Under the pieces are notes generated by a model. It did no database searches and had not been told where the DNA came from. It saw only the letters and a list, made by a program, of their open reading frames with translations. A stretch of 30,759 nucleotides of DNA. Origin: Rickettsiales bacterium (lineage in GTDB: Bacteria > Pseudomonadota > Alphaproteobacteria > Rs-D84 > CACZYB01). Position 1 is the first letter of the stretch. The number at the start of each line of letters is the position of its first letter. The stretch lies in the NCBI GenBank assembly GCA_031288035.1, contig JAITSG010000019.1:1-30759 (forward strand), given 5' to 3'. A program made the translations under genes and the position numbers. This document shows, one piece after another, positions 4,526 to 16,458 of the stretch.

Positions 4526-4798
4526 ATGTTCAAAAGCATAATAAAGAAGACGACCGCGAAGCCGGCTGCGAAGAAGCCCGCCGTGAAGAAGGCCGTCAAG
4601 AAGCCCGCGGTGGCTGCGAAAAAGCCGGTGAAGAAGGTGGCGGCCAAGAAGCCCGTCGCCAAGAAGTCGGTGACCGTGAAAAAGGCTCCCGCGAAGAAGA
4701 AGCCCGTCGCGAAGAAGGCTTCGGTGAAGGTTTCCGTCGCGAAGAAGCCCGTTGCCAAGAAGGCGCCGGCTAAAAAAAAAGTAGCGAAAAAGAAATAA
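4526..4798 (+). CDS. Histone H1-like Lys/Ala/Pro-rich DNA-binding protein
   Basis: 36 of 90 residues are Lys, none acidic, repeated KKPAAKK/KKPVAKK; strong AGGAGA RBS. Confidence 0.85.
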   Translation: MFKSIIKKTTAKPAAKKPAVKKAVKKPAVAAKKPVKKVAAKKPVAKKSVTVKKAPAKKKPVAKKASVKVSVAKKPVAKKAPAKKKVAKKK

Positions 4799-9456: not shown

Positions 9457-9897
9457 ATGCCGTATGAAAAAGAAAACACCTCGGTATCGTATAAAGCCGA
9501 CGGCTCGTCCGTGGAGTTCGAGTTCCCGTTTAGGATCTTCCGGCCGCAGGACGTGAAGGTCGAGATAGACGACGATCCGGTCGAGGAAGGGTTTTCCGTC
9601 GCAGGGGACAAGGTGGTGTTCGCCGCGCCTCCGCCGGCCGGATCGGACATAAGCATAAGGCGGTTCCTCGATTTCACGCGCATAGGCGCGTTCACGGCCG
9701 GCGGCCCGTTCAGGGCCGAGGATGTAAATACCGAGTTCGAATACACCCGCGCGTGCATCCGCCAGATATTCGACACGGATCTGGCCGACGCGGTTGCGTT
9801 CGTTGAGGATTGCCTGAGCGCCATAGAGGAAATATACGGCGAGCTGACCGACATATGGGGCGGCCAGCTCGACTGCGGAGGCTTGGCCGATGCCTAG
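9457..9897 (+). CDS. Stand-alone T7 gp17-type tail-fibre N-terminal adaptor domain
   Basis: Y.ADG....F.FPF..F...DV.V...V.F..PP..G..I.I.R.......F..G....A..LN.EF pattern; only 146 aa. Confidence 0.78.
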   Translation: MPYEKENTSVSYKADGSSVEFEFPFRIFRPQDVKVEIDDDPVEEGFSVAGDKVVFAAPPPAGSDISIRRFLDFTRIGAFTAGGPFRAEDVNTEFEYTRACIRQIFDTDLADAVAFVEDCLSAIEEIYGELTDIWGGQLDCGGLADA

Positions 9898-10501
9898 CGC
9901 AGCGGCCGATTCGTCGTTCGTTTCGTTCCTCGGGGGCTGGAACTCGCTTATGGGCTTGTCCACGCCCGCCCACCATGTCCGCATCGCGAGATGGCTCGAG
10001 CGCGTGTTCAAAAGCAGGAAGAGGCGCGGGCTCCTGCTGGCCTTCCGGGCGAGCGGCAAGTCGACTATAGTCGGCCTGTTCATAGGATGGCTGCTGCGCG
10101 AGGATCCGAATCTGCGCATTCTGGTCGTCGCGGCGGATTCCGTTCTGGCCAAGAAGATGGTGCGTAGCGCGAGGAGGATAATCGAGATGCACCCCGGCCT
10201 GGCCGTCATCCGCCCGGTCAGGAGGGTCGAATGGGCGGGCGGATGCTTTACGGTGGAGCGCGGCATGCCTTTGCGCGATCCAAGCGTGCTTGCCATGGGC
10301 ATAGGCGCGAACATTACGGGGAGCAGGGCGGACGTGATAGTGTGCGACGACGTGGAGGTTCCGAAGAACACTTCTACCGCGGCCAGGCGCGCGGAGTTGC
10401 GCGAAAAGCTCCTGGAGCTCGACTTCGTCCTCACTCCGGACGGCATGGAGGTTTTCATAGGGACCCCGCATGTCAAGGACACTATTTACCGTGTGCGATA
10501 G
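9890..10501 (+). CDS. Terminase large subunit, N-terminal ATPase half
   Basis: Walker A AFRASGKST, Walker B VIVCDDVE, motif C FIGTPH, then stop; GGAGG RBS 8 nt upstream. Confidence 0.88.
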   Translation: MPSAAADSSFVSFLGGWNSLMGLSTPAHHVRIARWLERVFKSRKRRGLLLAFRASGKSTIVGLFIGWLLREDPNLRILVVAADSVLAKKMVRSARRIIEMHPGLAVIRPVRRVEWAGGCFTVERGMPLRDPSVLAMGIGANITGSRADVIVCDDVEVPKNTSTAARRAELREKLLELDFVLTPDGMEVFIGTPHVKDTIYRVR

Positions 10502-10870
10502 CCGGCTTGCGTTCGCGGTCGTTCGTCCTGTTCGCGGCTTTCGCCAAGTGCGTGCGGCGCTGAACTGCGCGCGGCAACATTTGCGAAGCATCATGCCCTT
10601 GTGCGGGGAGGGCATCCGGCCGGAAGCGCATCCGCAGGAGCTGTTTTTCGATTCTCGCGCGGACAACGGCCCTTGCCGCATGGCCGGCGTTCCTCGTTTG
10701 CGCGGACAACGGCCTTCGTTTTGCGAACCTATGTCCCTCATTTCGCTCGGACGCCGCCCGTCATTCGCGCAAGATGGCAGATTATATTCCCAGCCATAGG
10801 CGGCAAGAAAGGCCAAAACAGGCCAGAATCCGCCGATTTTTAGACAACAAAGAAATATTGTATAATTTTA

Positions 10871-10900
10871 TTGACAAACGAATTATTTTTCGTATAGAAT
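10871..10900 (+). promoter_or_regulatory. sigma70-like promoter, sRNA candidate 1
   Basis: TTGACA (10871) with TATAGA at 16 nt or TAGAAT at 18 nt spacing, in an AT-rich context. Confidence 0.65.
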
Positions 10901-10906
10901 GCAGCC

Positions 10907-11013
10907 ATTCCGCGAAAGCGGTACGAGTTTGCCGGAACGACCCCTCATTTCGGCAATAACCCCCGGGTCATTCCCTCCTTATTTCTCTCTCTCCTCTTGA
11001 TCCGGGGGATTTT
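10907..11013 (+). ncRNA. Small RNA candidate 1 (three hairpins, CU-rich loops)
   Basis: CCGC-GAAA-GCGG; 9-bp stem with loop CGACCCCTCA; 11-bp stem CCCCCGGGTCA/TGATCCGGGGG with a 27-nt pyrimidine loop, then ATTTT; no credible ORF. Confidence 0.55.
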
Positions 11014-11067
11014 CAAAGGGCCGCGGCCTTGCGCCGAAAGCCGCGCGGACATGCGTCAAGTTTTTCC

Positions 11068-11096
11068 TTGCATACCTGGCTGTTGCCTGCTAGAGT
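11068..11096 (+). promoter_or_regulatory. sigma70-like promoter with extended -10
   Basis: TTGCAT-17 nt-TAGAGT, with TG at 11088-11089. Confidence 0.5.
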
Positions 11097-11108
11097 TGGA
11101 TTCGTACG

Positions 11109-11136
11109 GACCGGATTGCCGGTCGGGTATTTTTTT
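11109..11136 (+). terminator. Intrinsic terminator
   Basis: GACCGG-ATTG-CCGGTC, then GGGTA and T7. Confidence 0.6.
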
Positions 11137-11337
11137 ATGGGAAAGTTGGCGTTGCGAATCGCATGCTGACGAATCGCGTTTTTTGATGCGTCCGGCCCGT
11201 AAAAAAGAATCAATTTTTAGGCAGTTAGGGTGTGGAATATAAATATTGAATTAATTTTTTAGATTTTGTATTCGTTTGATTTTACTGTGATTTCGGTTGG
11301 AATCATATACGAAACTTCGGTTTTGTGTCGAAACCGC

Positions 11338-11366
11338 TTGACTTTTCAAAACCTATCGCCTATGAA
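11338..11366 (+). promoter_or_regulatory. sigma70-like promoter, sRNA candidate 2
   Basis: TTGACT-17 nt-TATGAA; loss of the -7 T is common in alphaproteobacterial promoters. Confidence 0.55.
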
Positions 11367-11372
11367 TCACTA

Positions 11373-11480
11373 TGCGAGGCGATGGAATTGTTCTCTCAAT
11401 AACAAAACCTCCGGATTATTCCCTGTTGTATTCCTTTTCTCTCCTTTCCTCCTTCTCTCCTTACAACAGGGAGTTTTTTT
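11373..11480 (+). ncRNA. Small RNA candidate 2 (terminator stem with CU-rich loop)
   Basis: 13-bp stem ATTCCCTGTTGTA/TACAACAGGGAGT enclosing a 31-nt pure pyrimidine loop, followed by a T-tract. Confidence 0.55.
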
Positions 11481-11482
11481 AT

Positions 11483-11511
11483 TTGTACGGCCTTTGATTT
11501 TGTGGTATAAT
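11483..11511 (+). promoter_or_regulatory. sigma70 promoter, apparently leaderless, of the secreted protein gene
   Basis: TTGTAC-17 nt-TATAAT with extended TG; ATG follows 7 nt later; no SD sequence. Confidence 0.7.
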
Positions 11512-11518
11512 TGGGTCG

Positions 11519-13474
11519 ATGAGGAAAGGAATCTGTCATATACTGGCGTTTTTGCTGGCCCTGTCGGCCTCCGCTGGCGCCGCGACCCAGAAAAAGGCCG
11601 CCAGATCCGCGGGCAAGACCGGCGGGCACAAGGCCAAGAGGGTCAAGAAGAAGGAAACGACCACACAGCGGCTCGTTGGCGTTCCGAACGCTCCGTCAGA
11701 GCCCGGCGCCACTGCGACCAGCCCGCCAGTGTTTCAGAAGTATTTCGAATATCCGAACATAACGTTCTATAACGGCCAGAGCTATCCGCTTCAAAGCTTC
11801 ATGACTCCTTCGGTGGTTCAGGCATATCAGGCCTACGGCTCCGATTCGCGGGGGGAAAGGCTGTGCTTTTCGTGCCTGACGCTCCAGGGGACCAGCTCCG
11901 GCGGCCTTCCGCCCGAAACCGTGTCCGCGACCGCGGCGCAGAAGGCCTGTACTCCGCTAAAGGCTGGATATTCGTATGTTTTCGTCGTTGACCAGAACGC
12001 GACCGCCACGTGCGGCATGTCCGGGACCTTGACGATGGAGGACGCGAACAAATCCGTCCGCGGCCAGATGCCTATAACGTTTTCGATAAACACGGCCGCC
12101 CTGTCCGATCCGAACAACTTCGACGATCCGGACAAGACGTTCGACCAGCTGTTCGCCAATTTCGACAAGGTCAGGAACGGGATAAAGAGCGCGTATGAGA
12201 ATGTGAACGAGAAGTGCCGCGCGGCCAAGAAAGGGGTTAGCTCCCTGAAGGCCGCGGTTTCCGGCGCCACGACCCTTTCCGGCATAGGCATAGCGACTAG
12301 CGCGCTCGGCACCGGGGCGAGCGCCTGGAGCACGATTAACACTAAGAAGATAAAGGGCGGCCAGGAGGATCTGGCCAACGCCGACAAGGCGATACGCGAC
12401 GCGCTTGCGGTGTTGGACGCGGAGGCTGTTAAGATAGCCGAGGGTGACGGGAGGACAGCTTGGAAAGAATCTGAGAAATACGCCGCTATCCTTGAAGGCG
12501 GCCGGTGGGAGCCGGACGATTCGTCCGCGACCGAGGGGAAGATAAAGCTGTTTAAGAGCAAGAGTGTCGATGAAAAAGCCCAGGCCGACCATACCATTAA
12601 CTTCACCCAGGCGGTGAAGGAGTTGGAGAAGAATAGGAATGCCGAGCCATTGGCAGAGAATGATATTATTCGGCAATCCTCTCTAGTTACAACAGCCGCC
12701 AACAACGGAACAAAGCTTTGTGATGTCGATATTACTGGCAAGACCATCGCAGATAAGGATATCCAAGAGGTTAGATCTGATCTGAACAGTTCCGTTGACG
12801 ATTTTAGAAACAACGGAACCGGAGCTGCGGAAATGGCGGCTGGTGAAAAATACGACCTGCTTATAAAGGAGTGCGATACCGCAAAAGATAACGCGAGTAA
12901 AGCGGTTGGCAAGACTGATTCGCAATCTATAAGGAGTAGAGAAAATTTTGAAAGAAATTATGGGGAGGGATTTGACTGCAAGCCTGATCCGGATCAATCC
13001 CCTGGTGCAAATGTTCCTGTCAAAAAAGCAGCTTTGCAGAAAGCTCGTTATAATTTGACCGCAGCTGGCGTTGCTCTTACTCCTGAACAAAAAAGCAAAA
13101 TAAGATGCGTGGAAGACGCTATTGCCAAGCTCAACGAAGTGCAAAACGGCACCGGCTTCAACGAGAAGCTTGCCAAGCTTAGGACTGCCGAGGCCGCTGC
13201 GAAGTCGTTCGAGGATACGAAGGAGGACGCCCAGAGCGCGCGCAACCTGTCGTTCGGGCTCGACATGGGCGCGTCGGCCGCCGGTCTTGCCACGACCGGC
13301 TTGTCCGCCTTCGGTCTGGGCAAGGGCGCGGAAGCGGCAGGGGACGTGGACAAGGCGGCCGAGCAGGTCAAGGCCTGCGCCGACGCGTCGGCCGGATTGA
13401 CCAAGGCCCTGTCCGACTACGACGAATACGTCCGCTCGCTCGAGGAGGAGGAAGAGGAGGATTTCATATGGTAA
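11519..13474 (+). CDS. Large secreted helical protein with two Gly/Ala-rich hydrophobic helices
   Basis: Signal peptide (ILAFLLALSASAGA); hydrophobic segments LSGIGIATSALGTGASAW and LSFGLDMGASAAGLATTGLSAFGLG; acidic tail. Confidence 0.8.
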   Translation: MRKGICHILAFLLALSASAGAATQKKAARSAGKTGGHKAKRVKKKETTTQRLVGVPNAPSEPGATATSPPVFQKYFEYPNITFYNGQSYPLQSFMTPSVVQAYQAYGSDSRGERLCFSCLTLQGTSSGGLPPETVSATAAQKACTPLKAGYSYVFVVDQNATATCGMSGTLTMEDANKSVRGQMPITFSINTAALSDPNNFDDPDKTFDQLFANFDKVRNGIKSAYENVNEKCRAAKKGVSSLKAAVSGATTLSGIGIATSALGTGASAWSTINTKKIKGGQEDLANADKAIRDALAVLDAEAVKIAEGDGRTAWKESEKYAAILEGGRWEPDDSSATEGKIKLFKSKSVDEKAQADHTINFTQAVKELEKNRNAEPLAENDIIRQSSLVTTAANNGTKLCDVDITGKTIADKDIQEVRSDLNSSVDDFRNNGTGAAEMAAGEKYDLLIKECDTAKDNASKAVGKTDSQSIRSRENFERNYGEGFDCKPDPDQSPGANVPVKKAALQKARYNLTAAGVALTPEQKSKIRCVEDAIAKLNEVQNGTGFNEKLAKLRTAEAAAKSFEDTKEDAQSARNLSFGLDMGASAAGLATTGLSAFGLGKGAEAAGDVDKAAEQVKACADASAGLTKALSDYDEYVRSLEEEEEEDFIW

Positions 13475-15627: not shown

Positions 15628-16458
15628 ATGGAAGACCGGGATGATCCGCCGTTTTTGGAGGGGTTCGACCTGCTGAAGATTCCGGTGGTCGAGGACGGCC
15701 GGCCCGTGTGGCCGGAAAAGTTCCCGCTTGATAAGATAGAGCGGGTGCGCAGGTCTGCCGGCCCGCGGAAGTTCATGAGCCAGATGATGCTCGCCGTTCC
15801 GGACGGGGACGGCGGCCGGCTGTCCCCGGAAAGCCTGAAATTCTATTCGGCCGAGATAGAGGCGAGCGAGCGCAACCATGTCGTTTCGCATTCCGTCGCG
15901 GGCAGGCCGCTGGCCGGATATTCGTGCTGGTGGGATCCGTCGTTCGGATCGGCCAAGGGCGACGCGAGCGTCGTTGCCTATGTCCTTGTGGGCTGCGGAG
16001 GCGAGCGGTACCTGCACGACGTCGAGTATATCGCGGTGGACGATTCCGCGCGCTCGGCCGAGATACAGTGCGCCCGCATAGCCGGGTTCCTCGCCCGCCA
16101 TTCGATACGGACTATCCGGGTCGAGGACAACGGGCTCGGCAAGTTTCTGCCGGAGATACTGCGCGCCCGCACCGGCGCGGCGGTGATAGCGGAGCGTTCC
16201 AAGGCGCCGAAGGAGAAGAGGATACTCGATTCGTTGGAGGTCGCGGCGTCGGCCGGGCTGCTCTATGTTCACGAAAGGGTGAGGTCTGCGCGCTGGATGG
16301 ACGAATTTATGGGCTGGACGCCGGGCGGAGGTTCGCCGGACGACGGACTTGACGCCGCGGCCGGCGCCATGTCCGCCCCGTTCGCCAAGTTCCCGTTCGC
16401 GCTGGTCCGGCGCCGTTTCCCGCCGCGAGGCAAGACATACAAGGTAAGATGGAGGTGA
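15628..16458 (+). CDS. Terminase large subunit, C-terminal RNase H-like nuclease half
   Basis: Begins with the inter-domain region (PFLEGF..L.IP...G..VWPE.F...GPRKF.SQM), then WWDPSFG..KGDAS, VEDNG and PDDGLDA; GGAGG RBS 7 nt upstream. Confidence 0.85.
   Translation: MEDRDDPPFLEGFDLLKIPVVEDGRPVWPEKFPLDKIERVRRSAGPRKFMSQMMLAVPDGDGGRLSPESLKFYSAEIEASERNHVVSHSVAGRPLAGYSCWWDPSFGSAKGDASVVAYVLVGCGGERYLHDVEYIAVDDSARSAEIQCARIAGFLARHSIRTIRVEDNGLGKFLPEILRARTGAAVIAERSKAPKEKRILDSLEVAASAGLLYVHERVRSARWMDEFMGWTPGGGSPDDGLDAAAGAMSAPFAKFPFALVRRRFPPRGKTYKVRWR

What the first reader, a model, noticed from the sequence alone, without database searches (positions are those of the whole stretch)
10871..11480. Two small-RNA units with the same design: terminator stem carrying an anti-Shine-Dalgarno pyrimidine loop
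Seen: two promoter-led, ORF-free units of about 107 nt each end in an 11-13 bp stem around a 27-31 nt C/U-rich loop. The stems differ in sequence but the architecture is the same. The loops contain CCCUCCUU, CCUCCUU and UCCUUUC, the complement of the GAAAGGA RBS used by the scaffold, capsid, head-protein and portal genes. Loop 1 (AUUUCUCUCUC) matches 11 nt over the RBS-to-start region of the histone-like gene (GAGAGAGAAAU). Known: alphaproteobacterial cuckoo/CcsR and AbcR sRNAs use CU-rich anti-SD loops. Inference: trans-acting translational repressors, possibly a second silencing layer on the module. Caveat: the loops are low complexity and mimic the 16S 3' end, so matches are expected for many genes.
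Basis: partly seen in the sequence, partly recalled or inferred. Interest (0 to 1): 0.7.

Follow-up and report, generated by a model that had tools for sequence, protein, structure and literature searches.

The report
Two conserved pyrimidine-loop small RNA genes
Two real small-RNA genes in a tiny-genome termite-gut alphaproteobacterium each display an evolutionarily frozen C/U-only loop that copies the ribosome's mRNA-docking sequence; they most likely block ribosome-binding sites of other genes, and they sit where a tamed T7-like phage's packaging-enzyme gene was split in two.

Summary

**What is shown**
- Unit 1 (10906-11013) and unit 2 (11375-11480) each have a near-consensus sigma-70 promoter, no ORF, and a terminal hairpin (11 and 13 bp) around a G-free 27- or 31-nt C/U loop.
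- Relatives keep the promoters and loops almost letter for letter, while all 10 terminator-stem pairs covary.
- 21 of 22 loops contain CCUCCUU, the anti-SD core of the relatives' 16S 3' end.
- The family matches no Rfam model. It was found only in the window's order (families f1, f2, f5, f6; a diverged form in f3). It was not found in f4 or in 150 other alphaproteobacterial families.
- No Hfq or CsrA was found.

**New context**
- The large terminase (TerL) is split throughout this order but intact elsewhere.
- In f2, f3 and f5 the RNA genes lie exactly in the gap. In f1 they follow terL-N.
- In one relative (G003) they are unlinked from the module, so they can act in trans.

**Not shown**
- No specific target was identified. 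Module ribosome-binding sites are ordinary, and complementarity is no better than for many other genes.
- Expression evidence is weak.

**Best reading:** Hfq-independent, trans-acting translational repressors that mimic the anti-SD.

This scan had already noted look-alike paired pyrimidine-loop RNAs in other gut alphaproteobacterial genomes.

The parts
10871..10900 (+). Unit 1 promoter: TTGACA, 18-nt spacer, TAGAAT
   Evidence: 11 of 12 consensus matches. The homologous TTGACAAAG...TGTATAAT promoter is conserved in relatives.
10906..11013 (+). Unit 1 small RNA, about 108 nt, no ORF
   Evidence: Fold z -3.6. Model R1 scores 93.9 bits here and 82-155 bits in other f1 family relatives.
10910..10921 (+). 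Unit 1 5' hairpin with a GAAA tetraloop; sequence varies among relatives
   Evidence: Relatives carry a different hairpin sequence at this position.
10929..10956 (+). Unit 1 second hairpin with a conserved C-rich loop (ACCCCUCAU); near-invariant within family f1
   Evidence: helix 1 is 96% paired.
10960..11008 (+). Unit 1 terminal hairpin: 11-bp stem (10960-10970 / 10998-11008) and a 27-nt G-free C/U loop (10971-10997) containing CCCUCCUUA
   Evidence: All 10 modelled stem pairs covary and are 100% paired.
11339..11368 (+). Unit 2 promoter: TTGACT, 17-nt spacer, TATGAAT
   Evidence: Direct reading. CTTGACTTTT...TAAGAATC is conserved in 8 relatives.
11375..11480 (+). Unit 2 small RNA, about 106 nt, no ORF; the 5' half varies among relatives
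   Evidence: Fold z -3.8. Model R2 scores 96.4 bits. Alignment A2.
11418..11474 (+). Unit 2 terminal hairpin: 13-bp stem (11418-11430 / 11462-11474) and a 31-nt C/U loop (11431-11461) containing CUCCUUUCCUCCUU, followed by U7
   Evidence: z -6.1. The loop is invariant in 10 genomes and the stem shows UA-to-CG exchanges.
9890..10501 (+). terL-N, the ATPase half of the split T7-like large terminase. The RNA genes follow this gene in most relatives.
15628..16458 (+). terL-C, the nuclease half. It lies directly after the RNA gene or genes in families f2, f3 and f5.

Best explanation
The stretch holds two paralogous genes for abundant, Hfq-independent small RNAs of about 105-110 nt. Each is transcribed from its own near-consensus sigma-70 promoter and ends at its own hairpin terminator.

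The stem of that hairpin serves only to display a 27-31-nt, G-free, C/U loop as single-stranded RNA. The loop carries the same CCUCCUU heptamer as the 3' end of 16S rRNA.

The most likely mechanism is that the loop pairs in trans with purine-rich Shine-Dalgarno regions of mRNAs. It would favour mRNAs with long GA-rich leaders, and it would keep 30S subunits off them, repressing translation.

Shown: the genes, the structure, the invariance of the loops and the identity to the anti-SD core.
Inferred: trans action by RBS occlusion, and any target.

The genes probably entered, or arose in, the gap of the split terminase gene of a domesticated T7-like particle cluster early in this order, and they have mostly stayed there.
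For: - Gene anatomy. Promoter and terminator scans and folds agree. Promoters are conserved across genera.
- Covariation. On 22 sequences, 98% of cells are paired, 18 of 22 pairs show double changes, and 0 of 500 shuffles reach the observed values. Slid controls give 30-59% paired. The terminator stem has 10 of 10 pairs covarying.
- Loop invariance. Loops are unchanged while the neighbouring TerL-N protein is only 50-67% identical and genome GC shifts.
- Anti-SD identity. CCUCCUU is present in 21 of 22 loops. The relatives' 16S ends in GGAUCACCUCCUUUCA.
- Rarity. Only these two such elements exist in the genome.
- Hfq was not found in 5 genomes that are 92-96% complete. This fits pairing through a large open loop, as in Hfq-independent C-rich-loop sRNAs.
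- Capacity to act in trans. In G003 both genes are on contigs other than the module.
- About half of the 11-13-nt perfect complements in the genome lie on real RBSs, including ribosomal protein S19, a psd-like gene and lipoprotein genes.
- Weak expression hint. A 178-nt bovine-gut metatranscriptome contig starts 5 nt inside the predicted 5' end of a relative's unit 1 and matches through its terminator.
Against: - No target is identified. No complement longer than 13 nt exists in the genome.
- Duplex-energy ranking is dominated by G-rich coding tracts.
- Pairing of C/U loops with purine-rich RBSs is inherently unspecific.
- A 20-30-nt invariant loop is much longer than a usual 7-12-nt seed. That hints at a partner other than diverse mRNAs, such as a protein or the ribosome.
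- Expression is not demonstrated. The RNA libraries laid also cover terL, so DNA carry-over or mRNA cannot be excluded.
- Near-constant placement beside terminase genes suggests that a cis role may also exist.
Confidence: 0.5

Rival explanations
1. Module-dedicated brake. The RNAs specifically silence the tamed T7-like particle genes, for example the Lys-rich DNA-binding gene at 4526, the capsid gene or g184. They would act as a constitutive safety lock against leaky, lethal expression.
For: - The genes lie in or beside the terminase gap in f1, f2, f3 and f5. In f5 a unit-1-like copy follows another module gene.
- There is an 11-12-bp match to the Lys-rich gene's RBS in the window and in G010.
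- A 20-nt pure-purine RBS region precedes g184, with predicted duplexes of -29 and -31 kcal/mol.
- GAAAGGA RBSs are over-represented in the module: 5 of 41 genome-wide cases.
Against: - Module RBSs across 12 relatives are ordinary and show no conserved extended complementarity.
- The Lys-rich gene pairing shifts register and shortens to 8-9 nt in other relatives.
- The g184 site ranks only about 20th of 8252 purine tracts.
- GAAAGGA pairs just as well with the 16S tail.
- In G003 the RNAs are unlinked from the module.
- Family f4 keeps the module and the split TerL without the RNAs.
Confidence: 0.17
2. Decoy for a factor that recognises the 16S 3' end or C/U-rich single strands. Candidates are an anti-SD-binding maturation or initiation factor, ribosomal protein S1, or Rho (whose primary sites bind YC dinucleotides). 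The RNAs would titrate a protein rather than pair with mRNAs.
For: - Invariance over 20-30 nt is far longer than a pairing seed.
- The loops are G-free and unstructured.
- The anti-SD heptamer is exact.
- Consensus promoters imply high abundance.
- No single mRNA target stands out.
Against: - No partner protein is identified or co-located.
- Rho or S1 binding would not demand an exact sequence.
- Nothing was tested directly.
Confidence: 0.15
3. Primarily a cis-acting piece of the module. The hairpins would be the terminators or insulators that close the capsid-to-terL-N operon and gate read-through into terL-C. The small transcripts would be by-products.
For: - In f2, f3 and f5 the position is exactly between terL-N and terL-C, 60-160 nt before the terL-C start.
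- The hairpins are followed by U-tracts.
Against: - A terminator does not need an invariant 27-31-nt loop, and large loops weaken terminators.
- Each unit has its own conserved strong promoter.
- In f1 the downstream gene differs: FtsZ, a secreted protein or a tRNA.
- In G003 the genes are elsewhere.
- G019 adds a separate classic terminator after the two C/U hairpins.
Confidence: 0.1

Closest known systems
Cuckoo / CcsR / alpha-r14 sRNAs (RSs0680a-d, SmrC14, NfeR1) of Alphaproteobacteria
   Same: - Alphaproteobacterial, with a modular hairpin design.
- Stems are poorly conserved and full of compensatory changes.
- The only conserved sequence is a C/U-rich, anti-SD-like loop motif.
- Hairpin modules duplicate: two genes here, and two tandem hairpins in one transcript in G019.
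- The proposed mechanism is RBS occlusion (PMC4615179).
   Different: - The defining loop motif CCUCCUCCC is absent. Here the cores are CCCUCCUUAUUU and UCCUUUCCUCCUU.
- Only the terminal hairpin carries the motif, not every hairpin.
- Loops are 27-33 nt and invariant throughout, against 9-27 nt allowed in the cuckoo matcher.
- CcsR is bound by Hfq (PMC4615179), while no Hfq was found here.
- No Rfam model of these families gives any hit at E up to 10.
ErsA / Pseudomon-1 (Rfam RF01719)
   Same: - Similar length.
- A C-rich loop is presented by the terminator hairpin.
- It is the only Rfam model that aligns end to end with unit 1.
   Different: - The score is 17.7 bits against a gathering score of 50, with E = 1.3, which is a chance-level match.
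- It belongs to a different phylum-level lineage.
- ErsA is Hfq-dependent (own knowledge).
Hfq-independent C-rich-loop sRNAs of Firmicutes (RNAIII UCCC loops, RsaE/RoxS)
   Same: - Exposed C-rich hairpin loops start pairing with G-rich SD sequences without Hfq (as summarised in PMC4615179; otherwise own knowledge).
   Different: - Unrelated sequences and hosts.
- Their motifs are 4-6 nt in small loops, not a 27-31-nt pure pyrimidine loop.
Look-alike paired pyrimidine-loop RNAs noted earlier in this scan in other gut alphaproteobacterial MAGs (e1-1109065, e1-1227190)
   Same: - Two neighbouring sRNA genes with loops of about 30 nt made only of C and U.
- They lie next to terminase-N or a tRNA-Phe, are unchanged across relatives, and have no Rfam family.
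- I saw the same arrangement in G008.
   Different: - Those notes concern other genomes and share only 2 of 25 sequence words with this one.
- This window is a GC-rich genus with GC-rich stems and no tRNA beside the units.

Membership tests
Cuckoo / CcsR / alpha-r14 | 2-4 adjacent hairpins, each loop carrying CCUCCUCCC (PMC4615179) | tested here: not met
   CCUCCUCCC is absent from both loops and from all 22 aligned relatives. Only the last hairpin carries a C/U loop.
Cuckoo / CcsR / alpha-r14 | Stems variable with compensatory changes; only the loop motif conserved | tested here: met
   10 of 10 terminator pairs covary and the loops are invariant.
Cuckoo / CcsR / alpha-r14, AbcR, alpha-r8 and all other Rfam families | Match to the family covariance model at the gathering score | tested here: not met
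   There are 0 gathering-level hits in the window. At E up to 10, only ErsA (17.7 bits) and a cyanobacterial leader (17.3 bits) appear.
ErsA / Pseudomon-1 RF01719 | At least 50 bits against the model | tested here: not met
   17.7 bits, E 1.3.
Trans-acting base-pairing sRNA (generic) | Own promoter and intrinsic terminator, no ORF | tested here: met
Trans-acting base-pairing sRNA (generic) | Conserved single-stranded seed | tested here: met
   The loops are invariant and unpaired in the MFE and centroid folds.
Trans-acting base-pairing sRNA (generic) | A discrete transcript is detected | tested here: inconclusive
   No RNA run holds the window. Metatranscriptome contigs of relatives cover the units, and one starts at the predicted 5' end, but terL is covered too.
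Trans-acting base-pairing sRNA (generic) | Identified target with conserved or compensatory pairing | tested here: inconclusive
   There are many 11-13-nt RBS matches, none unique or demonstrably conserved.
CsrA/RsmA-titrating sponge RNA (antisense strand) | CsrA present; the GGA-rich strand is the transcript | tested here: not met
   CsrA was not found in 5 genomes. The conserved promoter and U-tract are on the C/U strand.
Hfq-dependent sRNA | Hfq encoded in the genome | tested here: not met
   PF17209 was not found in G000, G010, G006, G016 or G024 (92-96% complete), and the controls were positive.

The most novel reading that the evidence does not exclude
The RNA cassette may be an integral, ancient component of the domesticated T7-like particle system. 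Its insertion would have created the order-wide split of the large terminase. The RNAs would then work with the particle genes in one of two ways: as a constitutive anti-SD lock that must be overcome for particle production, or as an RNA cofactor of the two-piece packaging motor, loosely comparable to phi29 pRNA.
Probability: 0.12. Interest if true: 0.85.

Novelty: new variant of a known kind. Interest (0 to 1): 0.55.

Why it matters
- The stretch defines an uncatalogued, strongly constrained small-RNA family in uncultured, tiny-genome gut Alphaproteobacteria that lack Hfq.
- The loops are as conserved as rRNA and copy the ribosome's anti-Shine-Dalgarno core. This makes them a clean natural test case for how a cell can use an anti-SD mimic to tune translation.
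- Their placement in the gap of a terminase gene that is split throughout one order, but intact elsewhere, ties an RNA gene to the domestication history of a T7-like particle cluster.
- It also offers a concrete hypothesis for how such a lethal cluster is kept silent.

Tried and rejected
- **Rfam.** There are no gathering-level hits in the window. Permissive hits are at chance level.
- **tRNA/tmRNA.** None in the window.
- **RNA runs.** No RNA holder is listed for the window; only the termite-gut DNA source run holds it. For a rumen relative, contigs of RNA libraries were laid. They cover the units but also terL, so they give no proof of transcription, ends or strand.
- **Long specific target.** No perfect complement longer than 13 nt exists for either loop or for hairpin 2.
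- **Genome-wide duplex energies.** These are uninformative because they are dominated by G-rich coding tracts (a first attempt timed out).
- **Module-specific complementarity.** Rejected after reading RBSs of 11 module genes in 12 relatives.
- **GAAAGGA as a module signature.** It is a general SD variant, with 41 RBS-like cases genome-wide.
- **Unit-2 loop pairing with the 5' end of the apparently leaderless gene at 11519.** The 10-nt, -17 kcal/mol pairing is not conserved, because the G008 homologue has a normal SD 400 nt away.
- **CsrA sponge.** No CsrA was found.
- **Hfq.** Not found.
- **16S in the window's own genome.** Not assembled, so relatives were used.
- **Family f4.** No model hit in f4 except one weak, diverged hit in G141. 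No CCUCCUU-containing pyrimidine tract was found in 5 f4 genomes.
- **Outside the order.** R1 was not found in 150 other families of the class.
- **Considered and rejected on anatomy.** A group I/II intron, an intein, or translational bypass joining the TerL halves were set aside because the units are too small, have their own promoters, and the halves lie 5 kb apart or are reordered in f1.

Full report
**Setting**

The window is an entire 30.8-kb contig (C6) of an 807-kb, 91-contig genome that is 92% complete and 59% GC. Record titles of relatives call them Alphaproteobacteria or Rickettsiales MAGs from termite, rumen and other guts. The only public run holding the stretch is a termite-gut metagenome.

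On the plus strand lies a T7-like structural cluster: scaffold, capsid, nozzle, fibre N-domain, portal and a terminase nuclease-like domain. Housekeeping genes follow. The finding lies in an AT-rich, ORF-poor gap (38-49% GC) between the gene at 9890-10501 and the gene at 11519.

- Unit 1 has a promoter matching 11 of 12 consensus positions. It folds into three hairpins. The last is an 11-bp stem around a 27-nt loop with no G.
- Unit 2 has a TTGACT/TATGAAT promoter and a 13-bp stem around a 31-nt C/U loop, followed by U7.
- Both fold better than shuffles (z -3.6 and -3.8; the unit 2 hairpin alone gives -6.1).
- In the whole genome only 3 of 258 long pyrimidine tracts are closed by a stem of at least 9 bp, and two of them are these units.

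**They are real, conserved RNA genes**

A DNA search of 60 relatives found the unit 2 hairpin at 89-95% identity and unit 1 at 68-81% identity. The two usually lie 400-1400 nt apart.

Reading the loci shows which parts are conserved and which are not:
- Conserved: both promoters, the whole 31-nt loop of unit 2 (identical in 10 genomes), the loop of unit 1, and unit 1's second hairpin.
- Not conserved: the 5' parts and the stems.

The stems change by paired substitutions. On a 22-sequence alignment spanning at least three families:
- 98% of cells are standard pairs.
- 18 of 22 pairs have double changes, and all 10 terminator pairs covary.
- No shuffle out of 500 reaches these values.
- Sliding the partner columns drops pairing to 30-59%.

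The alignment was fitted to the model, which favours the structure. However, an independent MAFFT/RNAalifold run gave the same two helices.

The window's stems are GC-rich where those of AT-rich relatives are AU-rich. The loops are nevertheless unchanged, so composition drift has acted on everything except the loops.

**What the loops are**

- 21 of 22 loops contain CCUCCUU.
- The own genome has no assembled 16S. In four relatives the 16S ends GGAUCACCUCCUUUCA.
- The loops therefore carry the exact anti-SD core, flanked by more C/U.
- The most conserved cores are UCCCUCCUUAUUU in unit 1 and UCCUUUCCUCCUU in unit 2.

**Distribution**

- Covariance models R1 and R2 find only these two copies in the own genome. 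Each model weakly detects the other unit, consistent with paralogy.
- In the order, R1 hits f1 14/18, f2 4/4, f5 2/2, f6 1/3 and f4 1/122.
- Five f4 genomes have no CCUCCUU-bearing pyrimidine tract.
- 150 other families of the class give nothing.
- No Rfam family matches.

**Context: the split terminase**

The gene upstream of unit 1 is the ATPase half of TerL.

- Where TerL is intact: homologues in Thalassospira, Azospirillum, Micavibrio and many gut MAGs are intact ORFs of 470-505 aa.
- Where it is split: in 139 of 151 genomes of the window's order, the ATPase part is a separate ORF of about 200-230 aa.
- RNA genes in the gap (f2, f3, f5): in f2 (G024, G019), f5 (G026) and f3 (G020, with a diverged loop), the RNA gene or genes lie exactly between terL-N and terL-C.
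- Family f1: unit 1 starts about 100 nt after terL-N, and terL-C has moved behind the portal gene.
- Family f4: the gap holds 3.4 kb of other genes and no such RNA.
- The linkage is not obligatory. In G003 the two RNAs sit on other contigs, and terL-N is followed by ftsZ. In G015 and G006 unit 2 is inverted. In f5 a unit-1-like copy follows a different module gene.

I read this as linkage by descent, possibly from the event that split TerL. It goes together with a capacity to work in trans.

**Mechanism**

Features pointing to an abundant trans-acting RNA that pairs with purine-rich RBSs through an open loop:
- near-consensus promoters;
- terminator-embedded, single-stranded loops identical to the anti-SD;
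- absence of Hfq;
- unlinked copies in G003.

This is the logic described for cuckoo/CcsR RNAs and for staphylococcal C-rich loops (PMC4615179).

I could not name a target:
- The longest perfect complements are 13 nt. About half of the 11-13-nt matches fall on true RBSs of unrelated genes.
- Energy ranking is swamped by G-rich coding tracts.
- Module RBSs are ordinary in the window and in 12 relatives.
- The match to the Lys-rich gene is kept at 11 nt only in G010. It is 8-9 nt in a shifted register elsewhere.

So the "second silencing layer on the module" rests on position, not on pairing.

The unusual length of the invariant loops keeps a protein or ribosome decoy role alive as a rival. A purely cis terminator role is unlikely, given the conserved promoters and the invariant loops.

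**Expression**

Only contigs from relatives' gut metatranscriptomes could be laid. One 178-nt contig begins 5 nt inside the predicted 5' end of unit 1 in a rumen relative and matches through the terminator. Others cover unit 2. But terL is covered as well, so this is no more than a hint.

**Comparison and novelty**

In function and design this resembles the anti-SD-loop sRNAs of Alphaproteobacteria. It fails their membership tests: the motif, the every-hairpin rule, Hfq and the covariance models.

It is best called a new variant of a known kind. It is an uncatalogued family with very long, frozen pyrimidine loops inside the terminator hairpin, restricted to one order of reduced gut Alphaproteobacteria, and embedded in the split terminase of a domesticated T7-like cluster.

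Earlier notes of this scan described look-alike RNA pairs in other genomes. I reached the same structural conclusion independently here. What I add is the order-wide TerL-gap context and the negative result on module-specific pairing.

Noticed in passing
window 9890-10501 and 15628-16458; loci L035-L100, L123, L127, L128, L130-L136: TerL is split into separate ATPase and nuclease ORFs in 139 of 151 genomes of this order, but is one intact 470-505-aa ORF in Thalassospira, Azospirillum, Micavibrio and other Alphaproteobacteria that carry the same T7-like cluster. The cluster itself is therefore widely conserved in the class.
   Followed up: partly
window 11483-11521: The secreted-protein gene at 11519 looks leaderless. 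An extended -10 (TGGTATAAT, 11503-11511) lies 7-8 nt before its ATG. The G008 homologue instead has a normal SD.
   Followed up: partly
window 11068-11136: A promoter-like TTGCAT-17-TAGAGT is followed after a few bases by a hairpin (11109-11124) and U7. This is either a tiny transcript or a back-up terminator for unit 1, whose own U-tract (AUUUUC) is weaker than in relatives.
   Followed up: no
window 3866, 5430, 6337, 14218, 16527: Five module genes share GAAAGGA exactly 13 nt before the ATG, several of them directly after a hairpin plus T-tract. The motif is enriched in the window (11 against 4.5 expected) but is also a common RBS elsewhere in the genome.
   Followed up: partly
window 13435-13468: A 20-nt pure-purine tract (GAGGAGGAGGAAGAGGAGGA) forms both the acidic C-terminus of the 651-aa protein and the RBS region of the next gene (13468). 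It is the strongest predicted partner of both loops within the window.
   Followed up: partly
L010 4139-5821; L021 6317-7843: In genera g3 and g4, ftsZ lies inside the T7-like cluster, between terL-N (with or without the RNAs) and the portal gene.
   Followed up: no
L123 4983-5200 (G019): In this f2 genome the two C/U-loop hairpins stand in tandem in one promoter-led unit. They are followed by a separate classic GC-rich terminator just before terL-C.
   Followed up: no
L004 (reverse strand) about 1561-1800; L003, L006, L008, L010: Relatives carry a recurring CGAGTA(A/T) motif or small hairpin right after both RNA terminators. In G008 there is a duplicated piece of about 66 bp and a tRNA gene next to unit 2.
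   Followed up: no
window 10640-10745: The extra 270 nt between terL-N and unit 1, absent in relatives, hold a direct repeat GCGCGGACAACGGCC (twice) and a partial copy (CCCTCATTTCG, 10735-10745) of the 3' half of unit 1's second hairpin.
   Followed up: no
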